A stretch of 64,000 nt of DNA from a bacterium (GTDB lineage Bacteria; SZUA-182; SZUA-191; JAJRXT01): positions 37,791 through 101,790 of the forward strand of contig JAJRUS010000047.1 of NCBI GenBank assembly GCA_024277675.1, given 5' to 3'. A model generated the notes under the pieces. The model did no database searches. It was not told the origin of the DNA and saw only the letters and a program-made list of their open reading frames with translations. How positions within the stretch are numbered: position 1 is the first letter of the stretch; each line of letters begins with the position of its first letter. Positions 3,026-51,904 of the stretch are shown here, in pieces. A program made the translations under genes and the position numbers.

Positions 3026-3141
3026 GTATAGTTTCCGTTTATAGATAAACCTATATTTACATCAAGGGGACCTGCCCCCAAGGGGTCAGTGATCCCAACT
3101 CTGTGATAATACAAAAATAGAGCTAATAAAGTTGTATATGA

Positions 3142-4398: not shown

Positions 4399-5430
4399 TT
4401 AATCCAGCCCTTGGCTGGTTAATTCCTGCGCAATACTCAGTACCGAGCGCACATATTTTTCAAAACTCCAATGTTTCTTTACATCGGCTAAAGCATTTCG
4501 TCCAATCCGGTTGCATTCTTCTGAATTATCGAGTAGAGACAATATCTTCTCCCTCAAGGCTTGAGGGTTTTCCATTTCCACCAATAGACCGTTTTCTCCG
4601 TCATTGATAAACTCCACATTAGAAATCGCCCGACTGTTGATAGTGGGCTTACCGAGCGCCATCGCCTCCAGCATAACCACCATTCCCAATGAGCGGATGT
4701 GTGGACTTAGCGGCAGGACAACTACCATCGAATCTTTCAGTAATTCAAGATAGTTATCATAGCTTATATCATAATATACTTTAACGTTGGACGGAATTTT
4801 AATTCCCTGCATGCTAGCCCGATCGCTTACCACAATCAATTCTACCGGGAGATTTTTTGCCGCCTCCATCAATGTCTTATAATCACGGCCTGATTTACCG
4901 GCGCTAAACAGATAGCCGGCATTGGCTGAGATCATTTGCGGTTGCGTAATATTAGTATGATACGGTACAAATCTGAACTTATCTGCACTTATGTTTAACA
5001 CCCTTGAATAATATTCTAATTCACTTCGGGAAAAAACCAACATGCAATCTACTGAGGCTAATATTTTCTTTTGTATAAAGCGCTTAATTCGCCAGCGCAG
5101 GCTCTGTCTCTCGGCATCCAGCATCAAATCCAACAGCAGGTGGGGACAACTGTTTCCGGCAAATAACTTTCTGAATAGCGCATAAAAAATTCCTGCTTTA
5201 AAATCACCGGTTATAACAATATCATAATCCTTTTTATTTTTAAACAATCTAAGGGCAATTACGACCGGTAAATTGTCGATATGCTGTATAAACTTTCTAA
5301 GCGGTGGGGGAATAAAAGCCTGCCGGGACAACCTGGAGCCCCATGAAGGAAAATAGCGGACATTATGCGTACGTTCTTCCCACAGCGGACACTGACTCTT
5401 TATAATTCTGTATTCGGTTAATACCTTCAT
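4399..5430 (-). CDS. Glycosyltransferase family 1/4
   Basis: 343 aa. C-terminal GT1 fold with E-x7-E-like region (MVVMLEAMALGKPTI). Confidence 0.7.
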   Translation of the reverse strand: MKVLTEYRIIKSQCPLWEERTHNVRYFPSWGSRLSRQAFIPPPLRKFIQHIDNLPVVIALRLFKNKKDYDIVITGDFKAGIFYALFRKLFAGNSCPHLLLDLMLDAERQSLRWRIKRFIQKKILASVDCMLVFSRSELEYYSRVLNISADKFRFVPYHTNITQPQMISANAGYLFSAGKSGRDYKTLMEAAKNLPVELIVVSDRASMQGIKIPSNVKVYYDISYDNYLELLKDSMVVVLPLSPHIRSLGMVVMLEAMALGKPTINSRAISNVEFINDGENGLLVEMENPQALREKILSLLDNSEECNRIGRNALADVKKHWSFEKYVRSVLSIAQELTSQGLD

Positions 5431-5453: not shown

Positions 5454-6209
5454 TTATTTCCTGCGGGCAATTACAATACTATAGAACCCATATTTATGAT
5501 CCAGCCAGGGGTCAAAGCGTTTAAGCGCTTTCTTAATATAATTCAAGGCTAAATGATAGCCTCGAGACAGGAATGAATGTTGATTATAGTCATATATGTT
5601 GTATAAAACGGTCATGATAGAATTACTGAATCCCCTGGCATAATATTCCAGTACCTCAAAATCGCACTGTTCGAGCATTTCCTTCAACTCATGAGGGCGG
5701 TAATAATCCTCATACTCGTCAATCGGAAAGTATTTGGTTCTCAAGCTCCAGATACCCTTATTGGGAGTATTCAAAAACAATATGCCCCCCGGTTTTAACA
5801 TCCGTTTCATTTCAAGTAACGGCAACCGGGGCTGTTTGAAATGCTCTATTACCCCTAAGCTGGTAATAAAATCAAAGCGTTCTGGTTTAAATGGGAGCTT
5901 TAAAATGTCAGCTTTGGCAAAATAAGGCGAGCTCAATTTATGCTTTTTCTTATATCGCTGTGCCTCAAGCAAACAATCCGATATATCCACCCCCACAGAA
6001 AAATCTATCCGTTCATCAGCGCTAAACAGAAAATTCCAATAACCCGGGCCGCAGCCGGCTTCCAGCCAGCGTATTTGCCCGGTCAGACAATACCTGTTTA
6101 TACAATTAAGCAGTTCCGGCAACAGATATTGGTCCTCATATTTTTTTATCTCTTCTTCCAGCAGGGGATTCTTGTTCCATAACTCATCCCAATATTCCTT
6201 TTTGGGCAT
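5454..6209 (-). CDS. Class I SAM-dependent methyltransferase
   Basis: 251 aa. WLEAGCGPGYW motif I; LKPGGILFL. Confidence 0.75.
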   Translation of the reverse strand: MPKKEYWDELWNKNPLLEEEIKKYEDQYLLPELLNCINRYCLTGQIRWLEAGCGPGYWNFLFSADERIDFSVGVDISDCLLEAQRYKKKHKLSSPYFAKADILKLPFKPERFDFITSLGVIEHFKQPRLPLLEMKRMLKPGGILFLNTPNKGIWSLRTKYFPIDEYEDYYRPHELKEMLEQCDFEVLEYYARGFSNSIMTVLYNIYDYNQHSFLSRGYHLALNYIKKALKRFDPWLDHKYGFYSIVIARRK

Positions 6210-6231
6210 AATATAGGCTTTCTTATAAGGG

Positions 6232-6368
6232 TACCTTGAAAAATTGTCTTTTCGCCCAAGTCCTGCGTTATGCTAAAAAATTTAATCCTCAGAATATCAA
6301 CTATATGCCTGCGGTTAAATTTTTCGCATGCCTTGATCTTGAACAAAAATCCTAATTTTTCAAGATAC
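6232..6368. repeat. 137-bp element with terminal inverted repeats (TACCTTGAAAAATT ... AATTTTTCAAGATAC), copy A. MITE-like or structured-RNA repeat.
   Basis: About 85% identical to 25259..25395. Termini are shared with 36382..36518. Internal inverted repeats (TAAAAAATTTAA/TTAAATTTTT and ATCTTGAA/TTCAAGAT). The terminal ...AGATAC TGA supplies the last two codons and the stop of the upstream GT gene. Confidence 0.75.
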
Positions 6369-7490
6369 CCATAAGTTTAAAACTTGTCGATATAGCTTTT
6401 CGTAATTTGTAACCATCTGCTCAAGGCTAAATTGTTCTTCCACCTGCCGGCAACCGGCATTCCCCATTTGTTTTCTTAAATGCTCATCGGCAAACAGTTG
6501 CAACAAGCGGTCAGCCAGGGCCTCCGGGTCGCTTACCGGCACCAAAAATCCAGTTACTCCATCTTCCACCACTGCCGGATTGCCCCCTACCCTGCTGGCT
6601 ATCACCGGTTTTCCCGCCGCCATCGCCTCCAGGAGAGTAATGGAAGTCCCTTCGTAGAAGGTAGCTAACACCGCTATATCCAAAACAGCCAGTAATTCCG
6701 GGATATCCCTTCTGCTGCCGGTAAAAATCACTTTATCGGCTAACCCTAATTGTCGGACTAAGTTCTCAAGCTCGGTTTTTTTAGGCCCGTCCCCAATGAG
6801 CAGCAATCTGGCCTGTGGATATTTTAAAATTACCTTGGGCAGCGCCTTTATCAGCGTGGCCTGATCCTTCTCGGTGCCCAATCTGGCTATCATACCACAT
6901 ACTAAATCGCCGGGAGCCAGTCCCAGCGATTTTTTTTTGTTAATTTCATGGTTGTTTGTTTTGAACTTGCAGCAATCAATGCCGTTAAAAATTACCTCTA
7001 TCCGGCGGCCCGGCATGACTTCATAGGTGATCAAGCTTTGCTTTACCGCCGGGGAAACCGCAATTATCCTGGCGGTAAAAGGCAGCATCAGTTGATTGAC
7101 TATAACCCGTTTAGTATTTCGCTGATCGGGATAATGTCTGCCATGTTCGGTAAATATTAATTTTTTAAATCGTGAACTTATCGCTGCCAACCCCCCATAA
7201 AAAAATGCCGTATACTGATGGGCATGAATTAAATCCACCCTTTCTGTTTTAATTATTCGCCTTAGTTTTTTTATTATTCCCCAATCGGTTCCCGGTTGTC
7301 GGTTTAAGCAGAAAACCTTTACTCCACTTGCCTTAAGCTCCTCTCCCAGGGCGCCGGTTTCATCTAAACAACAGAGCATGGGATTAAACAAAGATCGATC
7401 TAAATGCTGAATTAAGTTATGGACTACAACTGCAGCCCCCCCTTTTGCAAAATTATCCACCACAAACAATAAATTAGTGAGGCCGGCCAT
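6360..7490 (-). CDS. Glycosyltransferase family 4
   Basis: 376 aa. GT4 N-domain plus GT1 C-domain (EGTSITLLEAMAAGKPVIAS). Confidence 0.8.
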   Translation of the reverse strand: MAGLTNLLFVVDNFAKGGAAVVVHNLIQHLDRSLFNPMLCCLDETGALGEELKASGVKVFCLNRQPGTDWGIIKKLRRIIKTERVDLIHAHQYTAFFYGGLAAISSRFKKLIFTEHGRHYPDQRNTKRVIVNQLMLPFTARIIAVSPAVKQSLITYEVMPGRRIEVIFNGIDCCKFKTNNHEINKKKSLGLAPGDLVCGMIARLGTEKDQATLIKALPKVILKYPQARLLLIGDGPKKTELENLVRQLGLADKVIFTGSRRDIPELLAVLDIAVLATFYEGTSITLLEAMAAGKPVIASRVGGNPAVVEDGVTGFLVPVSDPEALADRLLQLFADEHLRKQMGNAGCRQVEEQFSLEQMVTNYEKLYRQVLNLWVS

Positions 7491-19778: not shown

Positions 19779-19924
19779 AAGTAAAAATAATGCTAATTTA
19801 CCCGACTAAGTTAGGTTTTATCAGCCGCAGTTGGGGTCATTGACCCCTTGGGGATACGTTCCCTTTTTCAAGGCACCCATTAATTGTCTGAAATAAAGAG
19901 TTATTTGGATTAAGCCGGTTTCCG

Positions 19925-23752: not shown

Positions 23753-23837
23753 TATTTAAACTAGGCTATTGGCATTATATAGTTTATACTATGTTTTTAT
23801 CAGCTCTATTGAAATAGTCATTGATAATGGGAAGATA

Positions 23838-25250
23838 ATGAGACGTAATTTATTTTTTAGCTATATGTTATTTGGTAGTCTTCTTATCGCAGGTTGTATC
23901 AGCACCCTCAGGTTATATTCCGGTCCAGAATTACCCCGGGATAAAATCGCTAAAGTAATAATAGAATCCCCTTTATTACTATATGCAGTGGACAGGAACC
24001 CCCCATTTTACAATCAGCGGCGAAGTATAGTAGCCTGGGAACTGGAGCTGCTTCCCGGATATCATACAATTACCCTTAAGTATAATTCAAATATCAACGG
24101 CCAATCCCTGTTAACGGAAAAAACTATTCCGGTAAAATTTTTGGCTAAAGCCGGACATACATATCGCGCCATGTCTTCCACTGACTGGAATACAAAGAAT
24201 ACGCAAACTTTTAAGGTCTGGTTTGATGACGAAACGCAGGCAGTTCTTAGCGCAGTTGAGCCTAAACCGAAAGATATTAATTCAGCCTTAATAGAGGCGA
24301 TAAAAAAAGGCGATTTAAATGCCGCCAGAACGCTCATGGAGAAAGGCGCTGATGTAAATAACCGGGATGCGGGTGGTTGGACGCCCTTAATGTATGCGGT
24401 TAGAAATAATCAGAACTATCTCGTACATGTGATGCTGATTAAAGGCGCTGATGTAAACGCAACCACCGAGCTGGGCACGACAGCCTTCATGTTGGCGGCC
24501 GGTACCGGCCAGAAAGATATCTTACAAGCTATGCTGGATAAGGGCGCTGATCTGAATGCAAAAGACAGGGCCGGCTGGACACCCATAATGCTGGCCACCA
24601 GAAACGGTCATGCCGGTATCGTGAAATTTTTGCAGAATAAGGGCGCCGATGTAAATGCAGAAACAGAGACTGGGCTGACCGCCTTTCTCTTGGCGGTAGA
24701 AAAGGGTCGGCTGGAGATTGTAGAAACCCTATTAAATAAAACCGCCGATATTGACCTGGCGCTTGAGGATGGGACAACCCCCTTGATATCTGCGGCCAAA
24801 AGTGGCCATATCGATATTGCCAAGGCCTTGTTAGGTAAGGGCGCCGATGTAAATTTAAAGACTGATGCCGGGGTAACGGCTTTAATGTATGCCGCTAAAG
24901 AGGGCTACACTGACATTGCAGAAGCTATCCTGGCTAAAAATGTCAATATAAATGCAAAAGACAATCACCAGGTAACCGCTTTGATGGAAGCCGCCGCTGG
25001 CGGCCACACTGATATCGTACGGTTACTACTATATAAAGGGGCTGAGGTAAATATCAAAAACAATGACGGTACAACAGCTTTAATGTTGGCAGCAATCGAG
25101 GGTCACACCGCTGTTCTACAGGCACTGCTGGATAAGGGCGCTGATTTAAACCAGCAGGATAACTATGGCCGAACGGCCTTAACCCTGGCGGCCAGGAATC
25201 TCCAAACGGGGGCGGTTATATTGCTTAAAGAGGCTGGAGCAAAAGAATAA
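23838..25250 (+). CDS. Ankyrin-repeat lipoprotein (about 10 ANK repeats)
   Basis: Start moved to the in-frame ATG giving MRRNLFFSYMLFGSLLIAGC (lipobox). Repeated (G)ADVNAKD..G.T(P/A)LM(L/Y)AA...GH motifs. Confidence 0.8.
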   Translation: MRRNLFFSYMLFGSLLIAGCISTLRLYSGPELPRDKIAKVIIESPLLLYAVDRNPPFYNQRRSIVAWELELLPGYHTITLKYNSNINGQSLLTEKTIPVKFLAKAGHTYRAMSSTDWNTKNTQTFKVWFDDETQAVLSAVEPKPKDINSALIEAIKKGDLNAARTLMEKGADVNNRDAGGWTPLMYAVRNNQNYLVHVMLIKGADVNATTELGTTAFMLAAGTGQKDILQAMLDKGADLNAKDRAGWTPIMLATRNGHAGIVKFLQNKGADVNAETETGLTAFLLAVEKGRLEIVETLLNKTADIDLALEDGTTPLISAAKSGHIDIAKALLGKGADVNLKTDAGVTALMYAAKEGYTDIAEAILAKNVNINAKDNHQVTALMEAAAGGHTDIVRLLLYKGAEVNIKNNDGTTALMLAAIEGHTAVLQALLDKGADLNQQDNYGRTALTLAARNLQTGAVILLKEAGAKE

Positions 25251-25258
25251 TTTTTGGG

Positions 25259-25395
25259 TATCTGGGAAAATTGCCCTTTCGTCCAATATCGGCGTTATGC
25301 TAAAAAATTTAATCCTCGGAATATCAACCATAGCCTTGAGTTAAATTTTTCGCAGGCGCTTTATCTTGAACGAAATTTCTAATTTTTCAAGATAC
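25259..25395. repeat. 137-bp TIR element, copy B
   Basis: About 85% identical to 6232..6368, same orientation. Lies 8 bp beyond the stop of the sigma-54 regulator gene. Confidence 0.75.
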
Positions 25396-25402
25396 ACTTT
25401 TA

Positions 25403-26803
25403 TTATAAGTGATATTTCTTGATCTTGCGGTAGAGGGTTTTATAGTCTATTTTAAGTCGTTGGGCCGCCTTAACCTTATTGCCATGTGCCTCTTCTATGG
25501 CCTGTCGTATGGCCTGTTTCTCTACCTGTTCTATGGCAGCCTGGCTTATTTCCTTTAAAGATGTCCGGTTATTATAATTAGCAGCCGGGCTCATATTAGA
25601 CGGCATAAATTGAGATATGGGCGACTGAAACAAATGATAGGGTTGAATAATATCCGGTGAGAGTAATACTGCCCGGCGAATGACGTTTCTCAATTCCCTG
25701 ACGTTTCCCCGCCATTCCTGTTCCGATAGCCAGTTTATGGCTTCTTCAGAAAAACCGTGAAGCTTCTTGCCCAGTTCAGTTGAGGTTTCATGCAGAAATT
25801 TCTTGGCTAAAAGCAGTATATCCTCTTGCCGCTCACGTAGCGGCGGCAGGTAAATAGTAAATTCATTCAATCTATGATATAGGTCTTCCCGTAGATTTTC
25901 TGCGTTAACTTCTTCATCCAGCATAAGGTTTGAAGCGGCAATAATTCTTACATCCACGGTTATGGGTTTATTACCCCCCAAACGATAAAATTGCCGCTCT
26001 TGAAGTACTCGCAACATTTTTCTCTGGGTGCTCAGTGGAATATTGGCTACTTCATCCAGGAACAGCGTACCATCCTGAGCTAATTCAAAATAACCGGCTT
26101 TACTTTGATTAGCGCCCGTAAAGGCTCCTTTTTCATAGCCGAACAACTCGCTTTCGATAAGCGTATCGGGTATGGCGCCGCAATCAACCGGCACAAAAGG
26201 CTTATCTTTTCGAGAACTTTTCCGGTGGATAAAATGAGCCACCAGTTCTTTGCCGGTACCGGTTTCTCCTTGCAAAATCACGGTAAAGTTGGTTTTAGCC
26301 ACTTGTTCCACTTGATAGCTTATTCTCTGTATCTGGTGACTGGTCCCCATCAGTGAAAACAACGATGATTGGTCTCTTAGTTGTTCCCGTAGAAATTCAA
26401 CCTCCTGCTGCAACATAAAGTGATCCAATACCCGTTTAATGGTATACACAATCTGCTCATTGTCAAAGGGTTTGGTGAGAAAATCAGAAGCGCCCGTCTT
26501 TATGGCCTGAACAGAAGAAGGGATATCGCCATGAGCGGTAAGCATAATCACCGGCAACGAATAATTAATCTCCTTAATCTTTTTTAAAGCTTCCATGCCA
26601 TCCATGGTGGGCATCTTTATATCCAACAGCACTATATCGGGGGGCTGTTTTTTAACTTTGCCGATAGCATCGAGGCCATCTACTGCCTGCTGAACTATAA
26701 ACCCTTCGGCTTTCAGAATATTAGCCAGCAACCAGCGCATATCCTGTTCATCATCTACTATTAAAACAGTAGCCGGACAAAGCTTATCTTTCACTCTATT
26801 CAT
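25403..26803 (-). CDS. Sigma-54-dependent two-component response regulator (NtrC family)
   Basis: 466 aa. Receiver (VLIVDDE...LLDIKMP), AAA+ (GETGTGKE, GAFTGA, ESELFGYEKGAFTGA), C-terminal Fis-type HTH. Confidence 0.9.
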   Translation of the reverse strand: MNRVKDKLCPATVLIVDDEQDMRWLLANILKAEGFIVQQAVDGLDAIGKVKKQPPDIVLLDIKMPTMDGMEALKKIKEINYSLPVIMLTAHGDIPSSVQAIKTGASDFLTKPFDNEQIVYTIKRVLDHFMLQQEVEFLREQLRDQSSLFSLMGTSHQIQRISYQVEQVAKTNFTVILQGETGTGKELVAHFIHRKSSRKDKPFVPVDCGAIPDTLIESELFGYEKGAFTGANQSKAGYFELAQDGTLFLDEVANIPLSTQRKMLRVLQERQFYRLGGNKPITVDVRIIAASNLMLDEEVNAENLREDLYHRLNEFTIYLPPLRERQEDILLLAKKFLHETSTELGKKLHGFSEEAINWLSEQEWRGNVRELRNVIRRAVLLSPDIIQPYHLFQSPISQFMPSNMSPAANYNNRTSLKEISQAAIEQVEKQAIRQAIEEAHGNKVKAAQRLKIDYKTLYRKIKKYHL

Positions 26804-29221: not shown

Positions 29222-30022
29222 CTAAGGTACTGATTTGGCACACCTGAAGCCAACATTTTCATCATCGGTAATAGGGGTAAATTTACTACGCATAGTAGTA
29301 AGTGCATCATATTTGGCATCCATAAATGAGCCGCCTCGCAATACGTAACGCTCCTTACCGTAGAACTCATCTTCATGCTTATTACCGGGGTACGGCAGAT
29401 AATTATCGGCGGTCCACTCCCACACATTGCCGGCCATATCATAACAACCGTATGGACTGACCCCCTTAGGGTAACTGCCTACCTTGGTGGTGCCGCGTTT
29501 TCTGGATTTTTCAAAGTTTAATTTCTTCCTGGAGAATTTATTCCCCCAGGGAAACAATCTGCCGTCGGCGCCGCGGGCGGCCTTTTCCCATTCAGCTTCA
29601 GTAGGCAAGCGTTTACCCACCCATTCACAATAAGCCACCGCATTTTCCCAATTAACATACACCACCGGGTGTTTGCCCTTACCCCTGGGCATATCCCCGC
29701 CGGCATCCTCCCAGCTAAGCGGAATCGCCGCCCCGGTAGCCGCTATAAACTTTTTATACTCGTCATTAGTTACTTCGTATTTATCAATATAAACGGCATC
29801 CACATTAACCTTATGTGCCGGGGTAGCGCTGTCATGGTACTTAACCATTCCCCCCAAAGTGCCGACTATTTTTTCCAGCCGGGCCTCATCTATACCCATA
29901 GTAAATTCACCGGCCGGCACCAATACCATTCCAGTTGGAACATCCTCCGCAGCCACGGATTTAATATAAAAAACCAACAAACATATCACTAAAACAACAA
30001 GTTTTTTCTTACTCATAAACAC
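29222..30022 (-). CDS. Secreted formylglycine-generating enzyme (FGE/SUMF1) family protein
   Basis: 266 aa. Signal peptide. VNWENAVAYCEWVGKRLPTEAEWEKAARG...GNVWEWT...GFRCA motifs. Confidence 0.85.
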   Translation of the reverse strand: MFMSKKKLVVLVICLLVFYIKSVAAEDVPTGMVLVPAGEFTMGIDEARLEKIVGTLGGMVKYHDSATPAHKVNVDAVYIDKYEVTNDEYKKFIAATGAAIPLSWEDAGGDMPRGKGKHPVVYVNWENAVAYCEWVGKRLPTEAEWEKAARGADGRLFPWGNKFSRKKLNFEKSRKRGTTKVGSYPKGVSPYGCYDMAGNVWEWTADNYLPYPGNKHEDEFYGKERYVLRGGSFMDAKYDALTTMRSKFTPITDDENVGFRCAKSVP

Positions 30023-30053
30023 CTCCGTTCAGAATATTATAACAAACCGGACA

Positions 30054-30068
30054 GGGGTCATTGACCCC
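30054..30068. promoter_or_regulatory. Perfect palindrome GGGGTCATTGACCCC about 30 bp upstream of the FGE gene start
   Basis: Identical 15-mer at 19832..19846. Degenerate copy at 3082..3096. Overlaps a putative -35/-10 region (TTGTTATAAT downstream). Confidence 0.4.
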
Positions 30069-30096
30069 AGGTTGGATTAACGATGTGGAACCGTAA

Positions 30097-31098
30097 TTAA
30101 CGGGCACAACGAAATCCCACATCATCATAAATACCATCAGCCTTCAGCTTTTTACGATAAATGGTAGTGGCCATAAAGGGTTTTGACTTAAATGATCCTC
30201 CCCGGGCAACCCGCAGGTTTTGGTCCGCTGCTTCAACACTTAGGGCAGAGCCCGGATATGGTTTATACTTGTCGGCAGTCCATTCCCACACATTACCGGC
30301 CATATCATAGCAATCAAATTTACTGATTCCTTTCTCATACCTGCCGGTAATAGTGGGGGCGTTGAATCTTTCTCCTTTTGTATTAGTCCAGGCCCCTCGA
30401 AATTTTCGTCCCCAGGGAAAATAGAAGCTCTTTTTCCCGCCGCTGGCGGCTATTTCCCATTCCGCCTCAGTAGGCAGTCGCTTTTTTGCCCACTTGCAAT
30501 AGGCGGCTGCATCACTCCAGCTTACATTAACTACGGGATAGTCATCCTGATTCCTGCGGTAAGCGCCTCCGCGCCAGTGCCGTGGAGCCGGATGATGGGC
30601 AGCCTTTATGAATTTCTTGTAGCGGCTGTTGGTAACTTCATATTTGTCAATACGGAAAGCCTTCAATTTCACCGTATGTTTAGGAACGGATGCCAGGTAA
30701 TCCTTCTCGGAACCGCCTATGTTTTTGAGAATCCATTTTATTCTTTTTTGATCAATTCCCATGCTGTATTCGTCGGCAGGAATTGATACCATCCGGCTTC
30801 GGTCCTGATCGGCTCTAACCAGCGACAGGTTCACCTCGGCAACGGCGCCGGCAAATATCTCTATATTAGCCGTCTCCTGTAAATAGCCGCTGGTTTCCGC
30901 AATAATTACATGCTTGCCGACGTCTATATTTATTTTCAGCTTTTTGGTAGTAGCTAAATGAGCCGCCTGACCATCAATGAAAATATAGGCTTCCGGAATA
31001 CACTTAATTATCAACTTACCCACCTCGGCCCTGGCGATTGAATTACCAATCAGTAAAAACATCCCGCCTATTAACCAGCCTGCCAAAAAATTTTTCAT
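30097..31098 (-). CDS. Secreted PEGA-like domain + FGE/SUMF1 domain protein
   Basis: 333 aa. Signal peptide. N-terminal beta-rich PEGA-like segment (GKLIIKCIPEAYIFIDG...VGKHVIIAE). C-terminal VNVSWSDAAAYCKWAKKRLPTEAEWE...GNVWEWT...GFRCA. Confidence 0.8.
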   Translation of the reverse strand: MKNFLAGWLIGGMFLLIGNSIARAEVGKLIIKCIPEAYIFIDGQAAHLATTKKLKINIDVGKHVIIAETSGYLQETANIEIFAGAVAEVNLSLVRADQDRSRMVSIPADEYSMGIDQKRIKWILKNIGGSEKDYLASVPKHTVKLKAFRIDKYEVTNSRYKKFIKAAHHPAPRHWRGGAYRRNQDDYPVVNVSWSDAAAYCKWAKKRLPTEAEWEIAASGGKKSFYFPWGRKFRGAWTNTKGERFNAPTITGRYEKGISKFDCYDMAGNVWEWTADKYKPYPGSALSVEAADQNLRVARGGSFKSKPFMATTIYRKKLKADGIYDDVGFRCAR

Positions 31099-31144
31099 TA
31101 TAATTACCTCTTAGATTCAAAGAACTGTACCGGAAAATTAAATC

Positions 31145-32014
31145 TTATTTTACGGTTACACAACTAATGCCAACTTCCTTGGGACTGTTTCCGGTATCAT
31201 CAAAATCGCGATCTATGCAACGCAAGTAAAACTTAACGTTTAAAACCGACCCGCCTCGCACTACTTTATAAAAACCGGTCTCAGGCCCCGTCGGGTTTTT
31301 ATTCGGGCTATACTTATAATATCCGGGATCATACCAATCAGCTACCCATTCAGCCACATTACCGGCCATGTCCAAGGCCCCATATGCTGAAAAACCTTGA
31401 GGCTTGCTGCCCACGGGTTGATACGTCCGGTTTCCATCCCATTGCCGGCCGAAGGGAATATTTATCGACTCAGGCGGTTGGTTGCCCCAGGGATAAAGTC
31501 TTTCGTCAATCCCCCGAGCGGCTTTCTCCCATTCCGCTTCAGTGGCTAAGCGCTTACCCGCCCACTTGCAATAGCTGTCTGCATCCTGCCAACTCACATC
31601 AACCACCGGATAATTATCCAATCCAGCCGGAAAGCCAGCCTTGCTCCAGATATCAAATTCCGGATCGCTGGTATGCGCCGGTATTCGATGATTAGTAGCC
31701 TGCACAAACTTAAAATATTGAGCATTTGTAATCTCATGTTTGTCAATGTAAAAGGCATCCAGATAAACCTTATGTGCCGGTTTTTCGTCATTATAATAAG
31801 GTTTATCGGTGCCCATTACAAACTCTCCCGCCGGCACCAGCATCATCAGGGATCCATCTTTTTTATTAAGCCGGGTAGCCGGCAAACCAGCGGCCACAGC
31901 TAAACCGGGAAAGAAAAAACAAAATGTCAATATTCCCGGTAAACATCGCCTGCCAATAATTACGGCGCTTTTGGTACGACCTTTTTTTGTCTCTGGCCCG
32001 GTATCAATCGGCAT
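31145..32014 (-). CDS. Exported FGE/SUMF1 family protein
   Basis: 289 aa. Hydrophobic N-terminus. VDVSWQDADSYCKWAGKRLATEAEWEKAARG...GNVAEWV... Confidence 0.8.
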   Translation of the reverse strand: MPIDTGPETKKGRTKSAVIIGRRCLPGILTFCFFFPGLAVAAGLPATRLNKKDGSLMMLVPAGEFVMGTDKPYYNDEKPAHKVYLDAFYIDKHEITNAQYFKFVQATNHRIPAHTSDPEFDIWSKAGFPAGLDNYPVVDVSWQDADSYCKWAGKRLATEAEWEKAARGIDERLYPWGNQPPESINIPFGRQWDGNRTYQPVGSKPQGFSAYGALDMAGNVAEWVADWYDPGYYKYSPNKNPTGPETGFYKVVRGGSVLNVKFYLRCIDRDFDDTGNSPKEVGISCVTVK

Positions 32015-35963: not shown

Positions 35964-36389
35964 ATGATACTAATAAGCGAGCAATTGCTGAGTCGGATTT
36001 GTCAGCAGGCGGTGGCTGCTTACCCTGAAGAGTGTTGTGGAATATTGGTGGGTACGGGTGATGGCAAGAAGCAGATACAGCGTTTTTGTAAAACCGCCAA
36101 CATGAATAAACAGCGGCTGCGGGAGCGATATCTGATTGATGCCTTTGAACACTATAATATAGACAAACAGGCTAGGGCTGATGGGTTGAGCATTGTCGGC
36201 TTTTATCACTCTCATCCGGATTCTCCGCCCTACCCTTCTGAATTCGATATAAAAAGCGCCTGGCCCGCTTATTCATACATAATCATTTCAGTAGATAAGC
36301 ATAAAAATACTGAGGCAAAATCATGGATACTGGCTGGCCGGAACCGGTGTTTAGTAGCTGAAGAAATACGGTACTTAAGGATATCTTGA
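35964..36389 (+). CDS. Mov34/MPN/JAB (JAMM) family metalloprotease
   Basis: 141 aa. E...HSHPDSPPYPSEFD JAMM motif. Stop codon lies within the terminus of TIR element copy C. Confidence 0.8.
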   Translation: MILISEQLLSRICQQAVAAYPEECCGILVGTGDGKKQIQRFCKTANMNKQRLRERYLIDAFEHYNIDKQARADGLSIVGFYHSHPDSPPYPSEFDIKSAWPAYSYIIISVDKHKNTEAKSWILAGRNRCLVAEEIRYLRIS

Positions 36390-36518
36390 AAAATTAGAGA
36401 TTTTGTTCGGGGACAAGGAGCAGCGAGTCGAAAAAGCGCAGTGTACATACGAGTACATGAGCATTTTGAGGCGACCTGCGACGCCGTCAATCGGTGAGGA
36501 GAGCAATTTTTCAAGGTA
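36382..36518. repeat. 137-bp TIR element, copy C (inverted orientation, divergent core)
   Basis: Begins TATCTTGAAAAATTAGAGATTTTGTTC and ends CAATTTTTCAAGGTA. Both termini match copies A and B. The interior has diverged. Confidence 0.65.
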
Positions 36519-36545
36519 CTCTCATAGAGGAGATGGCAAAAATAA

Positions 36546-36995
36546 ATGCAAGCTAAAGATATTATGACTAAAAAAGTGTTTACTGTAACTGCGGATATGC
36601 CCATTAAAGAGTTAGCTCAATTTCTATTGGAACACCGGATTAGCGGTGCGCCGGTGGTGGACGAGCAAGGCAGCTTTTTGGGATTGATCACCGAAAAAGA
36701 GCTGATTGAACAAAATAAAAAGTTGCATATTCCCACAGTAGTAACTATAATGGAAGCTGTAATTTACCTGGAAAGTCTCAAGCATTTCGAGCAAGAGCTA
36801 AAAGAAATGCTGGCTACCCGGGTGGAGGATTTATATTTGAGAGAAGTGGCTACTATCGGCGAGGATACCGAGTTAGAAGATATTGCCACCCTGATGAGTG
36901 AATCCAGCGCTGAGTTATTGCCGGTAATGCGGGATAACGAGTTGGTGGGTATAGTCGGCAAGGCCGATGTGGTGCGTGCTATTACCAGGCAGTAG
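36546..36995 (+). CDS. CBS domain pair protein
   Basis: 149 aa. Two CBS motifs (DIMTKKVFTV...ISGAPVVD; LLPVMRDNELVGIV). Confidence 0.8.
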   Translation: MQAKDIMTKKVFTVTADMPIKELAQFLLEHRISGAPVVDEQGSFLGLITEKELIEQNKKLHIPTVVTIMEAVIYLESLKHFEQELKEMLATRVEDLYLREVATIGEDTELEDIATLMSESSAELLPVMRDNELVGIVGKADVVRAITRQ

Positions 36996-51139: not shown

Positions 51140-51904
51140 ATGCATAATTCTAAAAAATCTAAAGCCCTGTGGATAGGATTTATTATAATTTGTCTGGTGG
51201 GTATATATTTTAAAGCGGCCCACGCCAAAGCGCCCCAGGATATGGTACTCATCCCGGCCGGTGAATTTACCATGGGCAGTGAGGATGGTGATAAGGATGA
51301 ACTTCCACAGCGCCAGGTATACCTGGATGCCTTCTATATAGCTAAATATGAGGTTACCAATGCCCAATACCGTAAGTTCGTTAAAGCTACCGGTTATAGA
51401 GAGCCATATGGCTGGGATGATAAAAATTTTAATCAGCCCAATCAACCGGTAGTCGGTGTTTCATGGGAGGATGCAGCGGCATATTGCAAATGGGCCGGCC
51501 GGCGCCTACCCACTGAAGCCGAATGGGAAAAGGCGGCCCGCGGCGACGGGGGCTGGATATTTCCCTGGGGCCAGGATTGGAATAAGCAAAATGCCAACAG
51601 CTCATCATTGGACAAGCATAAAACTGCGCCGGTGGGCAGTTATCCTCAAGGAGTAAGTTCCTATGGGGTATATGATATGGCCGGCAATGTATGGGAATGG
51701 TGTGCTGATTGGTATGTAGCCGATTATTATCTCCTGGGTCCCGGGCGGAATCCCCCCGGTCCTTCAACCAGTGATTCGAAAGTAATCCGTGGCGGCGGCT
51801 GGTTTGATTCCCCTACCCAGTTGCGCACCACCAACCGCTATTACAGTCATCCGATGGTAAGGTACAACGGCATTGGTTTCCGCTGTGCCAAGGATTATAA
51901 ATAA
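51140..51904 (+). CDS. Exported FGE/SUMF1 family protein (fourth paralog)
   Basis: 254 aa. Signal peptide. VGVSWEDAAAYCKWAGRRLPTEAEWEKAARG...GNVWEWCADW...GFRCA. Starts 4 nt after the proS stop. Confidence 0.85.
   Translation: MHNSKKSKALWIGFIIICLVGIYFKAAHAKAPQDMVLIPAGEFTMGSEDGDKDELPQRQVYLDAFYIAKYEVTNAQYRKFVKATGYREPYGWDDKNFNQPNQPVVGVSWEDAAAYCKWAGRRLPTEAEWEKAARGDGGWIFPWGQDWNKQNANSSSLDKHKTAPVGSYPQGVSSYGVYDMAGNVWEWCADWYVADYYLLGPGRNPPGPSTSDSKVIRGGGWFDSPTQLRTTNRYYSHPMVRYNGIGFRCAKDYK

What the first reader, a model, noticed from the sequence alone, without database searches (positions are those of the whole stretch)
6232..6368. Undescribed ~137-bp TIR element family, three copies (6232..6368, 25259..25395, 36382..36518), inserted at gene 3' ends and donating stop codons
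Copies A and B are about 85% identical over 137 bp. Copy C shares both termini (TATCTTGAAAAATTAG(G/A)ATTTTGTTC ... CAATTTTTCAAGGTA) but has a diverged core. All three are bounded by imperfect 14-bp terminal inverted repeats (TAYCTTGAAAAATT). They contain strong internal inverted repeats and would fold into long hairpins. Each lies directly at the 3' end of a gene (GT4 6360, JAB 36389, sigma-54 regulator 25403). In two cases the terminus ...ATATCT-TGA encodes the last two residues and the stop codon of the host gene. This is behaviour typical of MITEs or Correia/ERIC-like elements, which can also act as terminators or sRNA sources.
Basis: seen in the sequence. Interest (0 to 1): 0.7.

Follow-up and report, generated by a model that had tools for sequence, protein, structure and literature searches.

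The report
New hairpin MITE family in Desulfobulbales
The three repeats are real copies of a small transposase-less mobile element (a MITE) that is common in Desulfobulbales sulfate reducers, and in two cases here it landed on a gene's stop codon and supplied a new one; this is a well-documented but ordinary kind of element.

Summary
The window has exactly three copies of a 142-143 bp palindromic element: A 6229-6370 (-), B 25256-25397 (-), C 36379-36521 (+). This is 3 nt wider on each side than reported.

It is a genuine MITE:
- The inverted ends read GG(G/C)NNC-CTTGAAAAATT.
- It is flanked by 4-bp target-site duplications with consensus TNNA in a C|TNNA|G target. These are perfect in 55/92 genome copies and 50/74 metagenome copies, against about 4.6 expected in the metagenome set.
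- There are well over 100 copies in Desulfobulbales genomes, and the same ends occur around other cores in Chromatiaceae.
- Two orthologous empty sites were found, for A and C.

A and C split the native stop codons (TTAT|AA, TTAT|AG). The glycosyltransferase and JAB proteins therefore now end in element-encoded WVS* and RIS*. B sits in a 6-nt gap between two convergent stop codons.

C's "diverged core" is a second conserved subfamily, not decay.

The whole element is a hairpin kept by compensatory changes. It folds better on one strand, yet its orientation relative to genes is unbiased. It has no terminator, promoter or Rfam signature.

No autonomous transposase partner was found.

Verdict: a new member of a known kind, of modest interest.

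The parts
6229..6370 (-). MITE copy A, subfamily 1, 142 bp. It lies between the GT4 glycosyltransferase gene (6360-7490, -) and a methyltransferase gene (5454-6209, -).
   Evidence: nhmmer E = 1.5e-39 over the full model. Hairpin of -58.5 kcal/mol. Gene identities.
6225..6228 (.). Target-site duplication of copy A, left copy (ATAA).
   Evidence: Identical to 6371-6374. It sits at the position defined by the family-wide flank matrix.
6371..6374 (.). Target-site duplication of copy A, right copy (ATAA; TTAT on the gene strand). Its last T on the gene strand was the first base of the native stop codon TAA.
   Evidence: The orthologues end ...LN* with a stop at this place.
6360..6370 (-). Element-derived end of the GT4 open reading frame: (T)GG GTA TCT TGA, giving W-V-S-stop.
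   Evidence: The ORF ends at 6360. The window protein ends ...LNLWVS while orthologues P0002, P0003 and P0005 end ...LN.
25256..25397 (-). MITE copy B, subfamily 1, 142 bp and degenerate. One end reads CTGGGAAAATT and the outer end reads GTGTAT. It lies between convergent genes: an ankyrin-repeat protein (stop at 25248-25250, +) and a sigma-54 response regulator (stop at 25403-25405, -).
   Evidence: nhmmer E = 2.9e-28. Sequence. Pfam assignments. ORF ends.
25252..25255 (.). Target-site duplication of copy B, left copy (TTTT).
   Evidence: Identical to 25398-25401.
25398..25401 (.). Target-site duplication of copy B, right copy (TTTT). Removing the element and one duplication leaves only 6 nt between the two convergent stop codons.
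36379..36521 (+). MITE copy C, subfamily 2, 143 bp. It lies between a JAB/MPN gene (35964-36389, +) and a CBS-domain gene (36546-36995, +).
   Evidence: nhmmer against the subfamily-2 model gives E = 6.9e-22. It aligns with 21 outside subfamily-2 copies. Gene identities.
36375..36378 (.). Decayed target-site duplication of copy C, left copy (TTAA; inferred original TTAT).
   Evidence: The inference comes from alignment with the empty site in L245.
36522..36525 (.). Decayed target-site duplication of copy C, right copy (TCAT), followed by AG. The inferred native stop codon is T|AG.
36379..36389 (+). Element-derived end of the JAB open reading frame: (A)GG ATA TCT TGA, giving R-I-S-stop.
   Evidence: The ORF ends at 36389. 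The window protein ends ...RYLRIS while the orthologues end ...RYV.

Best explanation
These are three copies of a non-autonomous DNA transposon (a MITE) that is endemic in Desulfobulbales.

**Anatomy (shown).** Each copy is about 142 bp and carries no gene. It ends in inverted repeats GG(G/C)NNC-CTTGAAAAATT. The whole element is a near-perfect palindrome.

**Mobilisation (inferred).** It is moved in trans by a DDE-type transposase that binds the roughly 17-nt ends. The enzyme makes a 4-bp staggered cut in an AT-rich, roughly palindromic target, C|TNNA|G. Repair of that cut gives the 4-bp duplication. The transposase itself was not found. From my memory of IS-family tables, a 4-bp duplication with GG ends fits IS5, IS427, ISAzo13, IS701 or ISH3-like enzymes best.

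**Why copies sit at gene ends (shown pattern, inferred cause).** The target resembles stop-codon contexts. Only insertions that spare genes persist. Copies therefore pile up in tiny intergenic gaps and on stop codons.

**How the stop codon is replaced (shown).** Either end of the element carries TGA 9-11 nt in. One end also carries TAG in a second frame. The first G of the element can rebuild TAG. A gene whose stop codon is split is therefore re-terminated after 0-3 extra residues. This happened to the GT4 gene (copy A, +WVS) and the JAB gene (copy C, +RIS). In both cases the downstream ribosome-binding site is left intact.

**Consequence (inferred, untested).** The two operons now carry a roughly 140-nt hairpin in their transcripts. 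Its effect on mRNA processing or stability is not known.
For: **Copies and distribution**
About 90 of them are true family members, nearly all from Desulfobulbaceae, Desulfocapsaceae, Desulfofustis, Desulfogranum and Desulfobia.
- A one-end pattern found 120 more metagenome loci.
- The same pair pattern gave only 3 chance hits in 2.9 million viral contigs.

**Target-site duplication**
- A flank-by-flank identity matrix peaks at 0.79-0.87 for exactly four positions abutting GG...CC.
- The duplication is perfect in 55/92 genome copies. In an independent metagenome sample it is perfect in 50/74, against 4.6 (maximum 11) for shuffled partners.
- The consensus is T-N-N-A, flanked by C and G.

**Empty sites**
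- L240 has GT4 followed by the methyltransferase with a 40-bp spacer and no element.
- L245 has JAB followed by CBS with an 18-bp spacer and no element.
- The orthologous proteins are 3-4 residues shorter.

**Stop-codon overlap across the family**
- 24 of 65 ORFs that read into a copy stop in the element terminus, at the first G, or in the duplication.

**Both orientations and all intergenic types**
- Co-directional contexts split 18 to 14. Convergent contexts number 9 and divergent 11.

**Ends are sufficient**
- Chromatiaceae copies and other variants carry the same ends and 4-bp duplications around unrelated cores. My reading of their flanks is in the full report.

**Lineage-specific bursts**
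- Copies are 89-95% identical within a genome and 75-83% identical between genera.

**No coding capacity and no known RNA family**
-.
Against: - No full-length element with these ends and a transposase gene was found. I searched about 0.8 Mb of genome loci, 0.7 Mb of metagenome loci, the plasmid collection and viral contigs. The mobilising enzyme and its family are therefore inferred only from the duplication length and the end sequence.
- The hairpin shows a strand asymmetry that a double-strand-DNA transposase model does not predict. One strand folds 13-15 kcal/mol better in 90/91 copies. G:U cells outnumber A.C cells 239 to 26, or 99 to 26 without the three fixed wobble sites.
- Compensatory changes maintain pairing deep inside the core, beyond what end recognition needs.
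- Copy C has only a decayed duplication (2/4).
- Gene calls around outside copies were made with a crude long-ORF heuristic.
Confidence: 0.88

Rival explanations
1. The element is primarily a functional structured RNA module. Examples would be a 3'-UTR or intercistronic hairpin that controls mRNA decay or RNase III processing, or an sRNA precursor. On this view the inverted ends are just the base of the stem, and spread by transposition is secondary or ancient.
For: - The hairpin is conserved with compensatory changes. In subfamily 1, 96% of cells are paired and 18/40 pairs show double changes; 0/500 shuffles reach this, and slid controls give 36-55% paired. In subfamily 2, 21/50 pairs show double changes.
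- There is a strand-specific wobble bias.
- All three window copies are co-oriented with the gene upstream.
Against: - Orientation relative to flanking genes is unbiased across the family: 18 to 14 in co-directional contexts, and 37 to 30 by my wider tally that also counts contexts with a gene on one side only.
- Copies also sit between divergent genes.
- Target-site duplications and empty sites show insertion.
- Most of the strand asymmetry comes from the shared ends and so is probably inherited from a founder copy.
- There is no terminator tail, no conserved promoter and no Rfam match.
- Variants with unrelated cores, and end-only mini-palindromes, exist.
Confidence: 0.07
2. It is a REP/REPIN-like or other hairpin element moved as single-stranded DNA by an HUH (RAYT or IS200/IS605-type) enzyme. 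That would explain the strand-specific fold.
For: - The whole element is a hairpin.
- One strand folds much better than the other in 90/91 copies.
- Wobble pairs are tolerated on that strand only.
Against: - By established knowledge of IS200/IS605 and REPINs, HUH enzymes insert without target duplication. Here a variable 4-bp duplication flanks about two-thirds of copies.
- The ends are true terminal inverted repeats, not subterminal hairpins next to a fixed target tetranucleotide.
- Both orientations occur.
Confidence: 0.03
3. It is a Tn3-family derived miniature element (a TIME), mobilised by a Tn3-type transposase.
For: The ends begin GGG/GGGG, and similarity between the two arms extends about 38-40 nt. 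This recalls the 38-bp Tn3-family repeats, a comparison made from memory.
Against: - The duplication is 4 bp, not 5. Identity drops to 0.49-0.63 at the fifth position, and that residual value is explained by the conserved element base.
- There is no internal TAAG motif at the expected place.
- The palindrome runs through the whole element.
Confidence: 0.03

Closest known systems
Correia elements (NEMIS) of Neisseria
   Same: Both are 100-160 bp non-coding elements with terminal inverted repeats. Both are present in many copies, lie in or next to transcription units, fold into long RNA hairpins and can overlap gene ends. (General properties from reviews PMC3184786 and PMC10969869.)
   Different: There is no detectable sequence relationship. 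By my own knowledge Correia elements duplicate TA, whereas this family duplicates 4 bp (TNNA). No conserved outward promoter or clear IHF site was seen here. The host is a different phylum.
ERIC/IRU elements of Enterobacteriaceae and Yersinia
   Same: Both are imperfect palindromes of about 127-140 bp in transcribed intergenic regions. In both, the two strands fold unequally because of G:U pairs. Both have variants with internal insertions. Here these are 159-160 bp copies carrying a 17-nt insert.
   Different: The sequence is unrelated. This family shows a clear 4-bp duplication and demonstrable empty sites. It is distributed across an order of sulfate reducers.
Chunjie MITE of Geobacter uraniireducens
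   Same: Both are MITEs of a former deltaproteobacterium. Both insert within operons or gene ends without destroying them and fold into very stable hairpins (PMC3184786, PMC10969869).
   Different: Chunjie is 178-235 bp, with 21-bp inverted repeats and 9-bp direct repeats (PMC3184786). This family is 142 bp, with about 17-nt core ends and 4-bp duplications. It is therefore a different family with a different transposase.
IS5-superfamily-derived MITEs (IS5/IS427-type)
   Same: Both have a short AT-rich, palindromic-looking target, a 4-bp duplication and ends that begin GG. (The IS5 features are my own knowledge of IS-family tables, not tested here.)
   Different: As I recall it, the IS5 target is YTAR rather than C|TNNA|G. 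No IS5-like transposase with matching ends was found.

Membership tests
MITE (miniature inverted-repeat transposable element) | Small size (well under 500 bp) and no transposase gene | tested here: met
   The copies are 142-143 bp. No reading frame is conserved, and stops occur in 2 of 3 frames from the AATTAG end.
MITE (miniature inverted-repeat transposable element) | Terminal inverted repeats | tested here: met
   The ends read GG(G/C)NNC-CTTGAAAAATT on both sides. The 11-nt core is invariant in 60/60 aligned copies, although it was also the search key.
MITE (miniature inverted-repeat transposable element) | Direct target-site duplication of fixed length and variable sequence | tested here: met
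   The duplication is 4 bp. It is perfect in 55/92 and in 50/74 copies, against 4.6 expected for the latter set. In the window it is ATAA/ATAA and TTTT/TTTT.
MITE (miniature inverted-repeat transposable element) | Many copies per genome | tested here: met
   There are 3 copies in this 64 kb window. At least 16 exact-end copies occur in MAG Del10, at least 7 in Desulfofustis glycolicus DSM 9705 and at least 5 in Desulfogranum mediterraneum DSM 13871. The scan was truncated, so these are lower bounds.
MITE (miniature inverted-repeat transposable element) | Filled versus empty orthologous sites | tested here: met
   L240 is an empty site for copy A and L245 for copy C.
MITE (miniature inverted-repeat transposable element) | A cognate autonomous IS with matching ends | tested here: inconclusive
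   None was found in about 1.5 Mb of fetched loci, in plasmids or in viral contigs. Whole genomes could not be searched.
Correia / ERIC families | TA target duplication and family consensus sequence | tested here: not met
   The duplication is 4 bp TNNA. I recognised no sequence resemblance. Neither family matched in Rfam, and I did not check whether Rfam holds models for them.
REP/REPIN (RAYT-mobilised) | No target duplication; short GC-rich palindrome with a GTAG-type head; associated RAYT gene | tested here: not met
   A target duplication is present. The element is AT-rich, 142 bp long and has true terminal repeats. The RAYT gene was not testable.
Tn3-derived miniature elements (TIMEs) | 5-bp duplication and 38-bp GGGG...TAAG repeats | tested here: not met
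   The duplication is 4 bp. There is no TAAG at the inner boundary.
Intrinsic (Rho-independent) terminator | GC-rich stem followed by a T-run | tested here: not met
   No terminator-like sites were found at copies A and C. The 3' arm ends ...AATTTTTCAAGGNNNCC, with no tail after the stem.
Any Rfam RNA family | Score at or above the gathering threshold | tested here: not met
   Only two tRNAs pass in the window. At the relaxed threshold the best hit is a plant miRNA hairpin at 24 bits against a threshold of 83.

The most novel reading that the evidence does not exclude
The palindrome may be more than a by-product of two inverted ends. A fold of one specific strand, as RNA or as single-stranded DNA, may be under selection across the whole order.

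Two readings would follow:
- These MITEs have been co-opted as orientation-dependent RNA modules in operons and 3' UTRs.
- They are moved by a still unknown transposase, shared between Desulfobulbales and purple sulfur bacteria, that uses a strand-specific hairpin intermediate yet still makes a 4-bp duplication.

The basis is the wobble bias on one strand (239 to 26), compensatory changes throughout both subfamilies, and identical 17-nt ends around unrelated cores in two phyla.
Probability: 0.15. Interest if true: 0.6.

Novelty: new member of a known kind. Interest (0 to 1): 0.35.

Why it matters
- **Annotation.** Desulfobulbales genomes and MAGs, a group that includes cable-bacteria relatives, carry tens to probably hundreds of these hairpins. 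The hairpins alter the annotated C-termini of genes, create spurious small ORFs and probably break assemblies.
- **Usable rule.** The ends GGNNNCCTTGAAAAATT plus a 4-bp TNNA duplication let the element be masked, used as a strain marker, or used to trace a still unidentified transposase. That transposase appears to be shared with Chromatiaceae.
- **Biology.** The element is a clean natural example of a mobile element that replaces the stop codon it destroys. It also places a large hairpin inside operons of cultured strains, Desulfofustis glycolicus and Desulfogranum mediterraneum, where its effect on mRNA could be tested.
- **Limits.** None of this changes the general understanding of bacterial MITEs.

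Tried and rejected
**Known RNA family.** Rfam at the gathering threshold and at the relaxed threshold returned only tRNAs and meaningless miRNA-like hairpin hits.

**Terminator or promoter.** Consensus scans at copies A and C found no terminator and nothing conserved.

**Parent transposase. All of these failed:**
- Looked for solo or loosely matching ends in fetched loci. They were degenerate, truncated or internally deleted MITEs, or chance matches. The one with an adjacent ORF (L078) showed nothing recognisably transposase-like, though I did not run it against Pfam.
- Clustered all ORFs of at least 200 codons to find repeated proteins. The only cross-taxon cluster was argininosuccinate synthase.
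- Ran BLAST of the element and of one end against plasmids, with no meaningful hit.
- Ran four viral-contig scans. They returned only chance hits or none.
- Used the single metagenome scan with a one-end pattern. It returned 98 paired elements, 13 at contig edges and 10 solo ends, and no solo end lies next to a transposase.

**Tn3-derived idea.** Rejected because the duplication is 4 bp.

**Orientation bias (3'-UTR function).** Not supported: 18 to 14.

**Strand asymmetry as independent evidence in both subfamilies.** Weakened, because it comes mainly from the shared ends.

**Source contig.** The look-up of encoding contigs has no record for the window's own proteins, and the cluster look-up gives no name. 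The organism is therefore inferred only as a Desulfobulbales-like MAG related to GCA_024277605.1.

**Literature.**
- No paper links MITEs to Desulfobulbales, and none contains the end sequence in a bacterial context.
- The Thiomargarita MITE paper describes unrelated elements.
- The Chunjie paper itself is not held.

Full report
**1. What is in the window**

- A gapped alignment gives 84% identity between A and B (120/143).
- C resembles A only at the ends: 83% over the first 40 nt, 72% over the last 35 nt, and about 53% in the core.
- The end motif is far above chance: 10 matches at up to 2 mismatches against 2.5 expected.
- Profile HMMs built only from copies found elsewhere recover exactly three elements in the 64 kb. 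These are 6229-6370 (-), 25256-25397 (-) and 36379-36521 (+), with E-values from 1.5e-39 to 7e-22.
- The elements are therefore 142-143 bp, 3 nt longer on each side than reported.
- Copy A folds into an almost perfect 140-nt hairpin of -58.5 kcal/mol, z = -9.3.

**2. The family outside the window**

- One genome-collection scan used the two 11-nt end cores 94-124 nt apart.
- About 90 of those loci are clearly the same element. Nearly all come from Desulfobulbales: Desulfobulbaceae, Desulfocapsaceae, Desulfofustis (including D. glycolicus DSM 9705), Desulfogranum mediterraneum DSM 13871, Desulfobia and Ca. Tharpella.
- The same pattern found only three chance matches in 2.9 million viral contigs.
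- A one-end pattern saturated again in metagenomes.

There are two conserved core types.
- Subfamily 1 has 68 copies and includes A and B.
- Subfamily 2 has 23 copies and includes C.
- C's "diverged core" is therefore subfamily membership, not decay.
- Both subfamilies share about 40 nt at one end and about 38 nt at the other, and they coexist in single genomes.

Other variants carry the same ends around different cores.
- These include a Desulfobia type and a Chromatiaceae type in Thiococcus pfennigii and Thioalkalicoccus limnaeus.

Copies are 89-95% identical within a genome and 75-83% identical between genera. This pattern fits long residence with lineage-specific bursts.

**3. Proof of insertion**

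*Target-site duplication.*
- I compared every flank position on the left with every position on the right over 92 copies.
- Direct identity of 0.79-0.87 appears at exactly four positions immediately outside GG...CC.
- The 4-bp duplication is perfect in 55/92 copies. Its consensus is T-N-N-A, preceded by C (64%) and followed by G (48%). The target is therefore roughly the palindrome C|TNNA|G.
- An independent set of 74 distinct metagenome copies gives 50 perfect duplications and 13 with one mismatch. Shuffled partners give 4.6 on average, with a maximum of 11.
- In the window, A has ATAA/ATAA, B has TTTT/TTTT, and C has a decayed TTAA/TCAT.

*Empty sites.*
- Contig L240 has the syntenic order Wzy, GT4, methyltransferase, GT. 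There GT4 and the methyltransferase are 40 bp apart with no element.
- Contig L245 has JAB and the CBS gene 18 bp apart.

**4. Stop-codon donation**

- GT4 orthologues at 81%, 72% and 68% identity all end ...LN*. The window protein ends ...LNLWVS*.
- On the gene strand the junction reads AAC TTA T|GG GTA TCT TGA. Removing the element and one duplication restores AAC TTA TAA. The insertion therefore split the native TAA after its first base.
- JAB orthologues end ...RYV*, while the window protein ends ...RYLRIS*.
- Aligning the JAB junction with the empty site points to an original TAC TTA T|AG. This is the same kind of event.
- In both cases the downstream gene's ribosome-binding region lies beyond the element and is intact.
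- Copy B does not touch a reading frame. Without it, the stop codons of the convergent ankyrin-repeat and sigma-54 regulator genes would be 6 nt apart.

This is a family trait.
- Among 65 long ORFs that read into a copy, 8 use the TGA at nt 9-11 of the end.
- A further 8 stop 1-2 nt inside the element, consistent with a stop codon completed by its first G.
- Another 8 stop within the duplication. The ORF calls here are a heuristic.
- Each end has TGA in one frame, and the AATTAG end also has TAG in a second frame.

**5. The hairpin**

- In subfamily 1 (60 sequences), 96% of cells are paired and 18 of 40 pairs show changes on both sides.
- No shuffle out of 500 reaches the observed values, and sliding the partners drops pairing to 36-55%.
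- In subfamily 2, 21 of 50 pairs show compensatory change.
- The strand that begins with the AATTAG end folds 13-15 kcal/mol better than its complement in 90 of 91 copies.
- G:U cells outnumber A.C cells 239 to 26, or 99 to 26 without the three sites where wobble is the majority state.
- Most of the energy difference comes from the shared ends (-35 against -23 kcal/mol) rather than the cores. It is therefore largely inherited and is not independent evidence.
- I regard the residual bias as unexplained.

**6. What argues against a dedicated RNA role**

- Orientation relative to neighbouring genes is unbiased: 18 to 14 in co-directional contexts.
- Copies also lie between convergent genes (9) and divergent genes (11).
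- There is no T-tail, no conserved promoter and no Rfam match.
- Variants with unrelated cores exist, as do internally deleted copies and end-only mini-palindromes. These point to the ends as the part that matters for spread, although the 4-bp duplication was checked only for the full-length variants.

**7. Mechanism**

*Shown:* terminal inverted repeats, a fixed-length duplication of variable sequence, empty sites, many copies, and both orientations.

*Inferred:*
- The element is mobilised in trans by a DDE transposase that makes a 4-bp staggered cut.
- From memory of IS-family tables, a 4-bp duplication with G-G ends is compatible with IS5, IS427, ISAzo13, IS701 or ISH3.
- It is not compatible with Tn3 (5 bp), IS630 (TA), or HUH enzymes (no duplication).

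I could not find the autonomous element. It may be rare, may have diverged at its ends, or may be absent from most host genomes.

**8. Comparison with known elements, and novelty**

- Functionally this is a textbook bacterial MITE, of the same kind as Correia, ERIC, RUP and Chunjie.
- Overlap with gene ends and long RNA hairpins are documented for those families (PMC3184786, PMC10969869).
- It is not a member of any of them. Chunjie has 21-bp repeats and 9-bp direct repeats (PMC3184786). From memory, Correia and ERIC duplicate TA.
- I found no description of this family. The 2024 prokaryotic MITE review has no Desulfo- entry, and full-text searches found nothing.
- ISfinder and subscription journals could not be checked.
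- Verdict: a new member of a known kind. It is well supported, useful for annotation and only mildly surprising.

**9. Caveats**

Copy numbers are therefore lower bounds, and end conservation is partly circular.
- Covariation counts are per sequence, not per evolutionary event.
- Some MAG labels (Spirochaetaceae, Bacteroidales, Pseudomonadota) are probably binning or naming artefacts.
- The window's organism is not identified directly.

Noticed in passing
L024:6925, L042:3162, L096:2223 and 2003, L010:1207/1259 and 5068, L060:3460/3516, L016:6639, L106:6987, L085:4416 (not in the window): A 17-nt unit, GGTAAGCG(C/T)AGACTCCG, sits at three or more different positions and in both orientations inside MITE copies. 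This gives the 159-160 bp variants. The unit also occurs alone in non-MITE DNA and as inverted pairs about 70 bp apart. It is nearly always preceded by CA or GA. It looks like a second, even smaller mobile unit, or the end of one.
   Followed up: partly
L239:4120-4345: In the sister MAG (GCA_024277605.1), the same GT4-to-methyltransferase spacer that holds copy A in the window is occupied by a different insertion of about 220 bp with inverted ends ATCTACAT... The spacer seems to be a recurrent landing site.
   Followed up: no
L019:2854-2888; L048:~4424-4446; start of L064, L067 and L092 elements: There are mini-palindromes made only of the two MITE ends, for example GGGTACCTTGAAAAATGAATTTTTTAAAGGTACCC. 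They could be products of deletion across the hairpin or minimal mobile units.
   Followed up: no
window 3064-3100 and 19829-19865: Two inverted copies of another short repeat, AGTTGGGRTCAYTGACCCCTTGGGG, lie in intergenic DNA. It contains the palindrome GGGGTCAnTGACCCC and was not found in any fetched locus. The second copy is followed at about 19866-19880 by CTTTTTCAAGGCACCC|ATTA, which looks like a solo terminus of the MITE family, just upstream of a tRNA gene.
   Followed up: partly
L027:7192-7345, L062:1698-1827: Desulfobia copies have the same ends around a third core. That core contains GTCATTCCCGCGCAGGCGGGAATCC, a palindrome of the ATTCCC-N8-GGGAAT type that is widespread in other bacteria (from memory, the Neisseria dRS3-like repeat).
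   Followed up: no
L040:5276-5413, L090:5856-5999, L110:7809-7945: Chlamydiae and Rhabdochlamydiaceae MAGs carry a different hairpin element of about 140 bp with 25-nt inverted ends, ATACCCAAACAACTTGAAAAATTGG. It shares only the CTTGAAAAATT core with the Desulfobulbales family.
   Followed up: no
window 29222-32014 and 51140-51904: There are four paralogous FGE-sulfatase-domain genes. Three are in tandem on the minus strand and one lies 20 kb away on the plus strand. They account for most of the long repeats in the window.
   Followed up: partly
window 23769-25250: A 493-residue protein made almost entirely of ankyrin repeats, with a 99-bp DNA periodicity, lies next to copy B. Such proteins are uncommon in free-living bacteria.
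   Followed up: no
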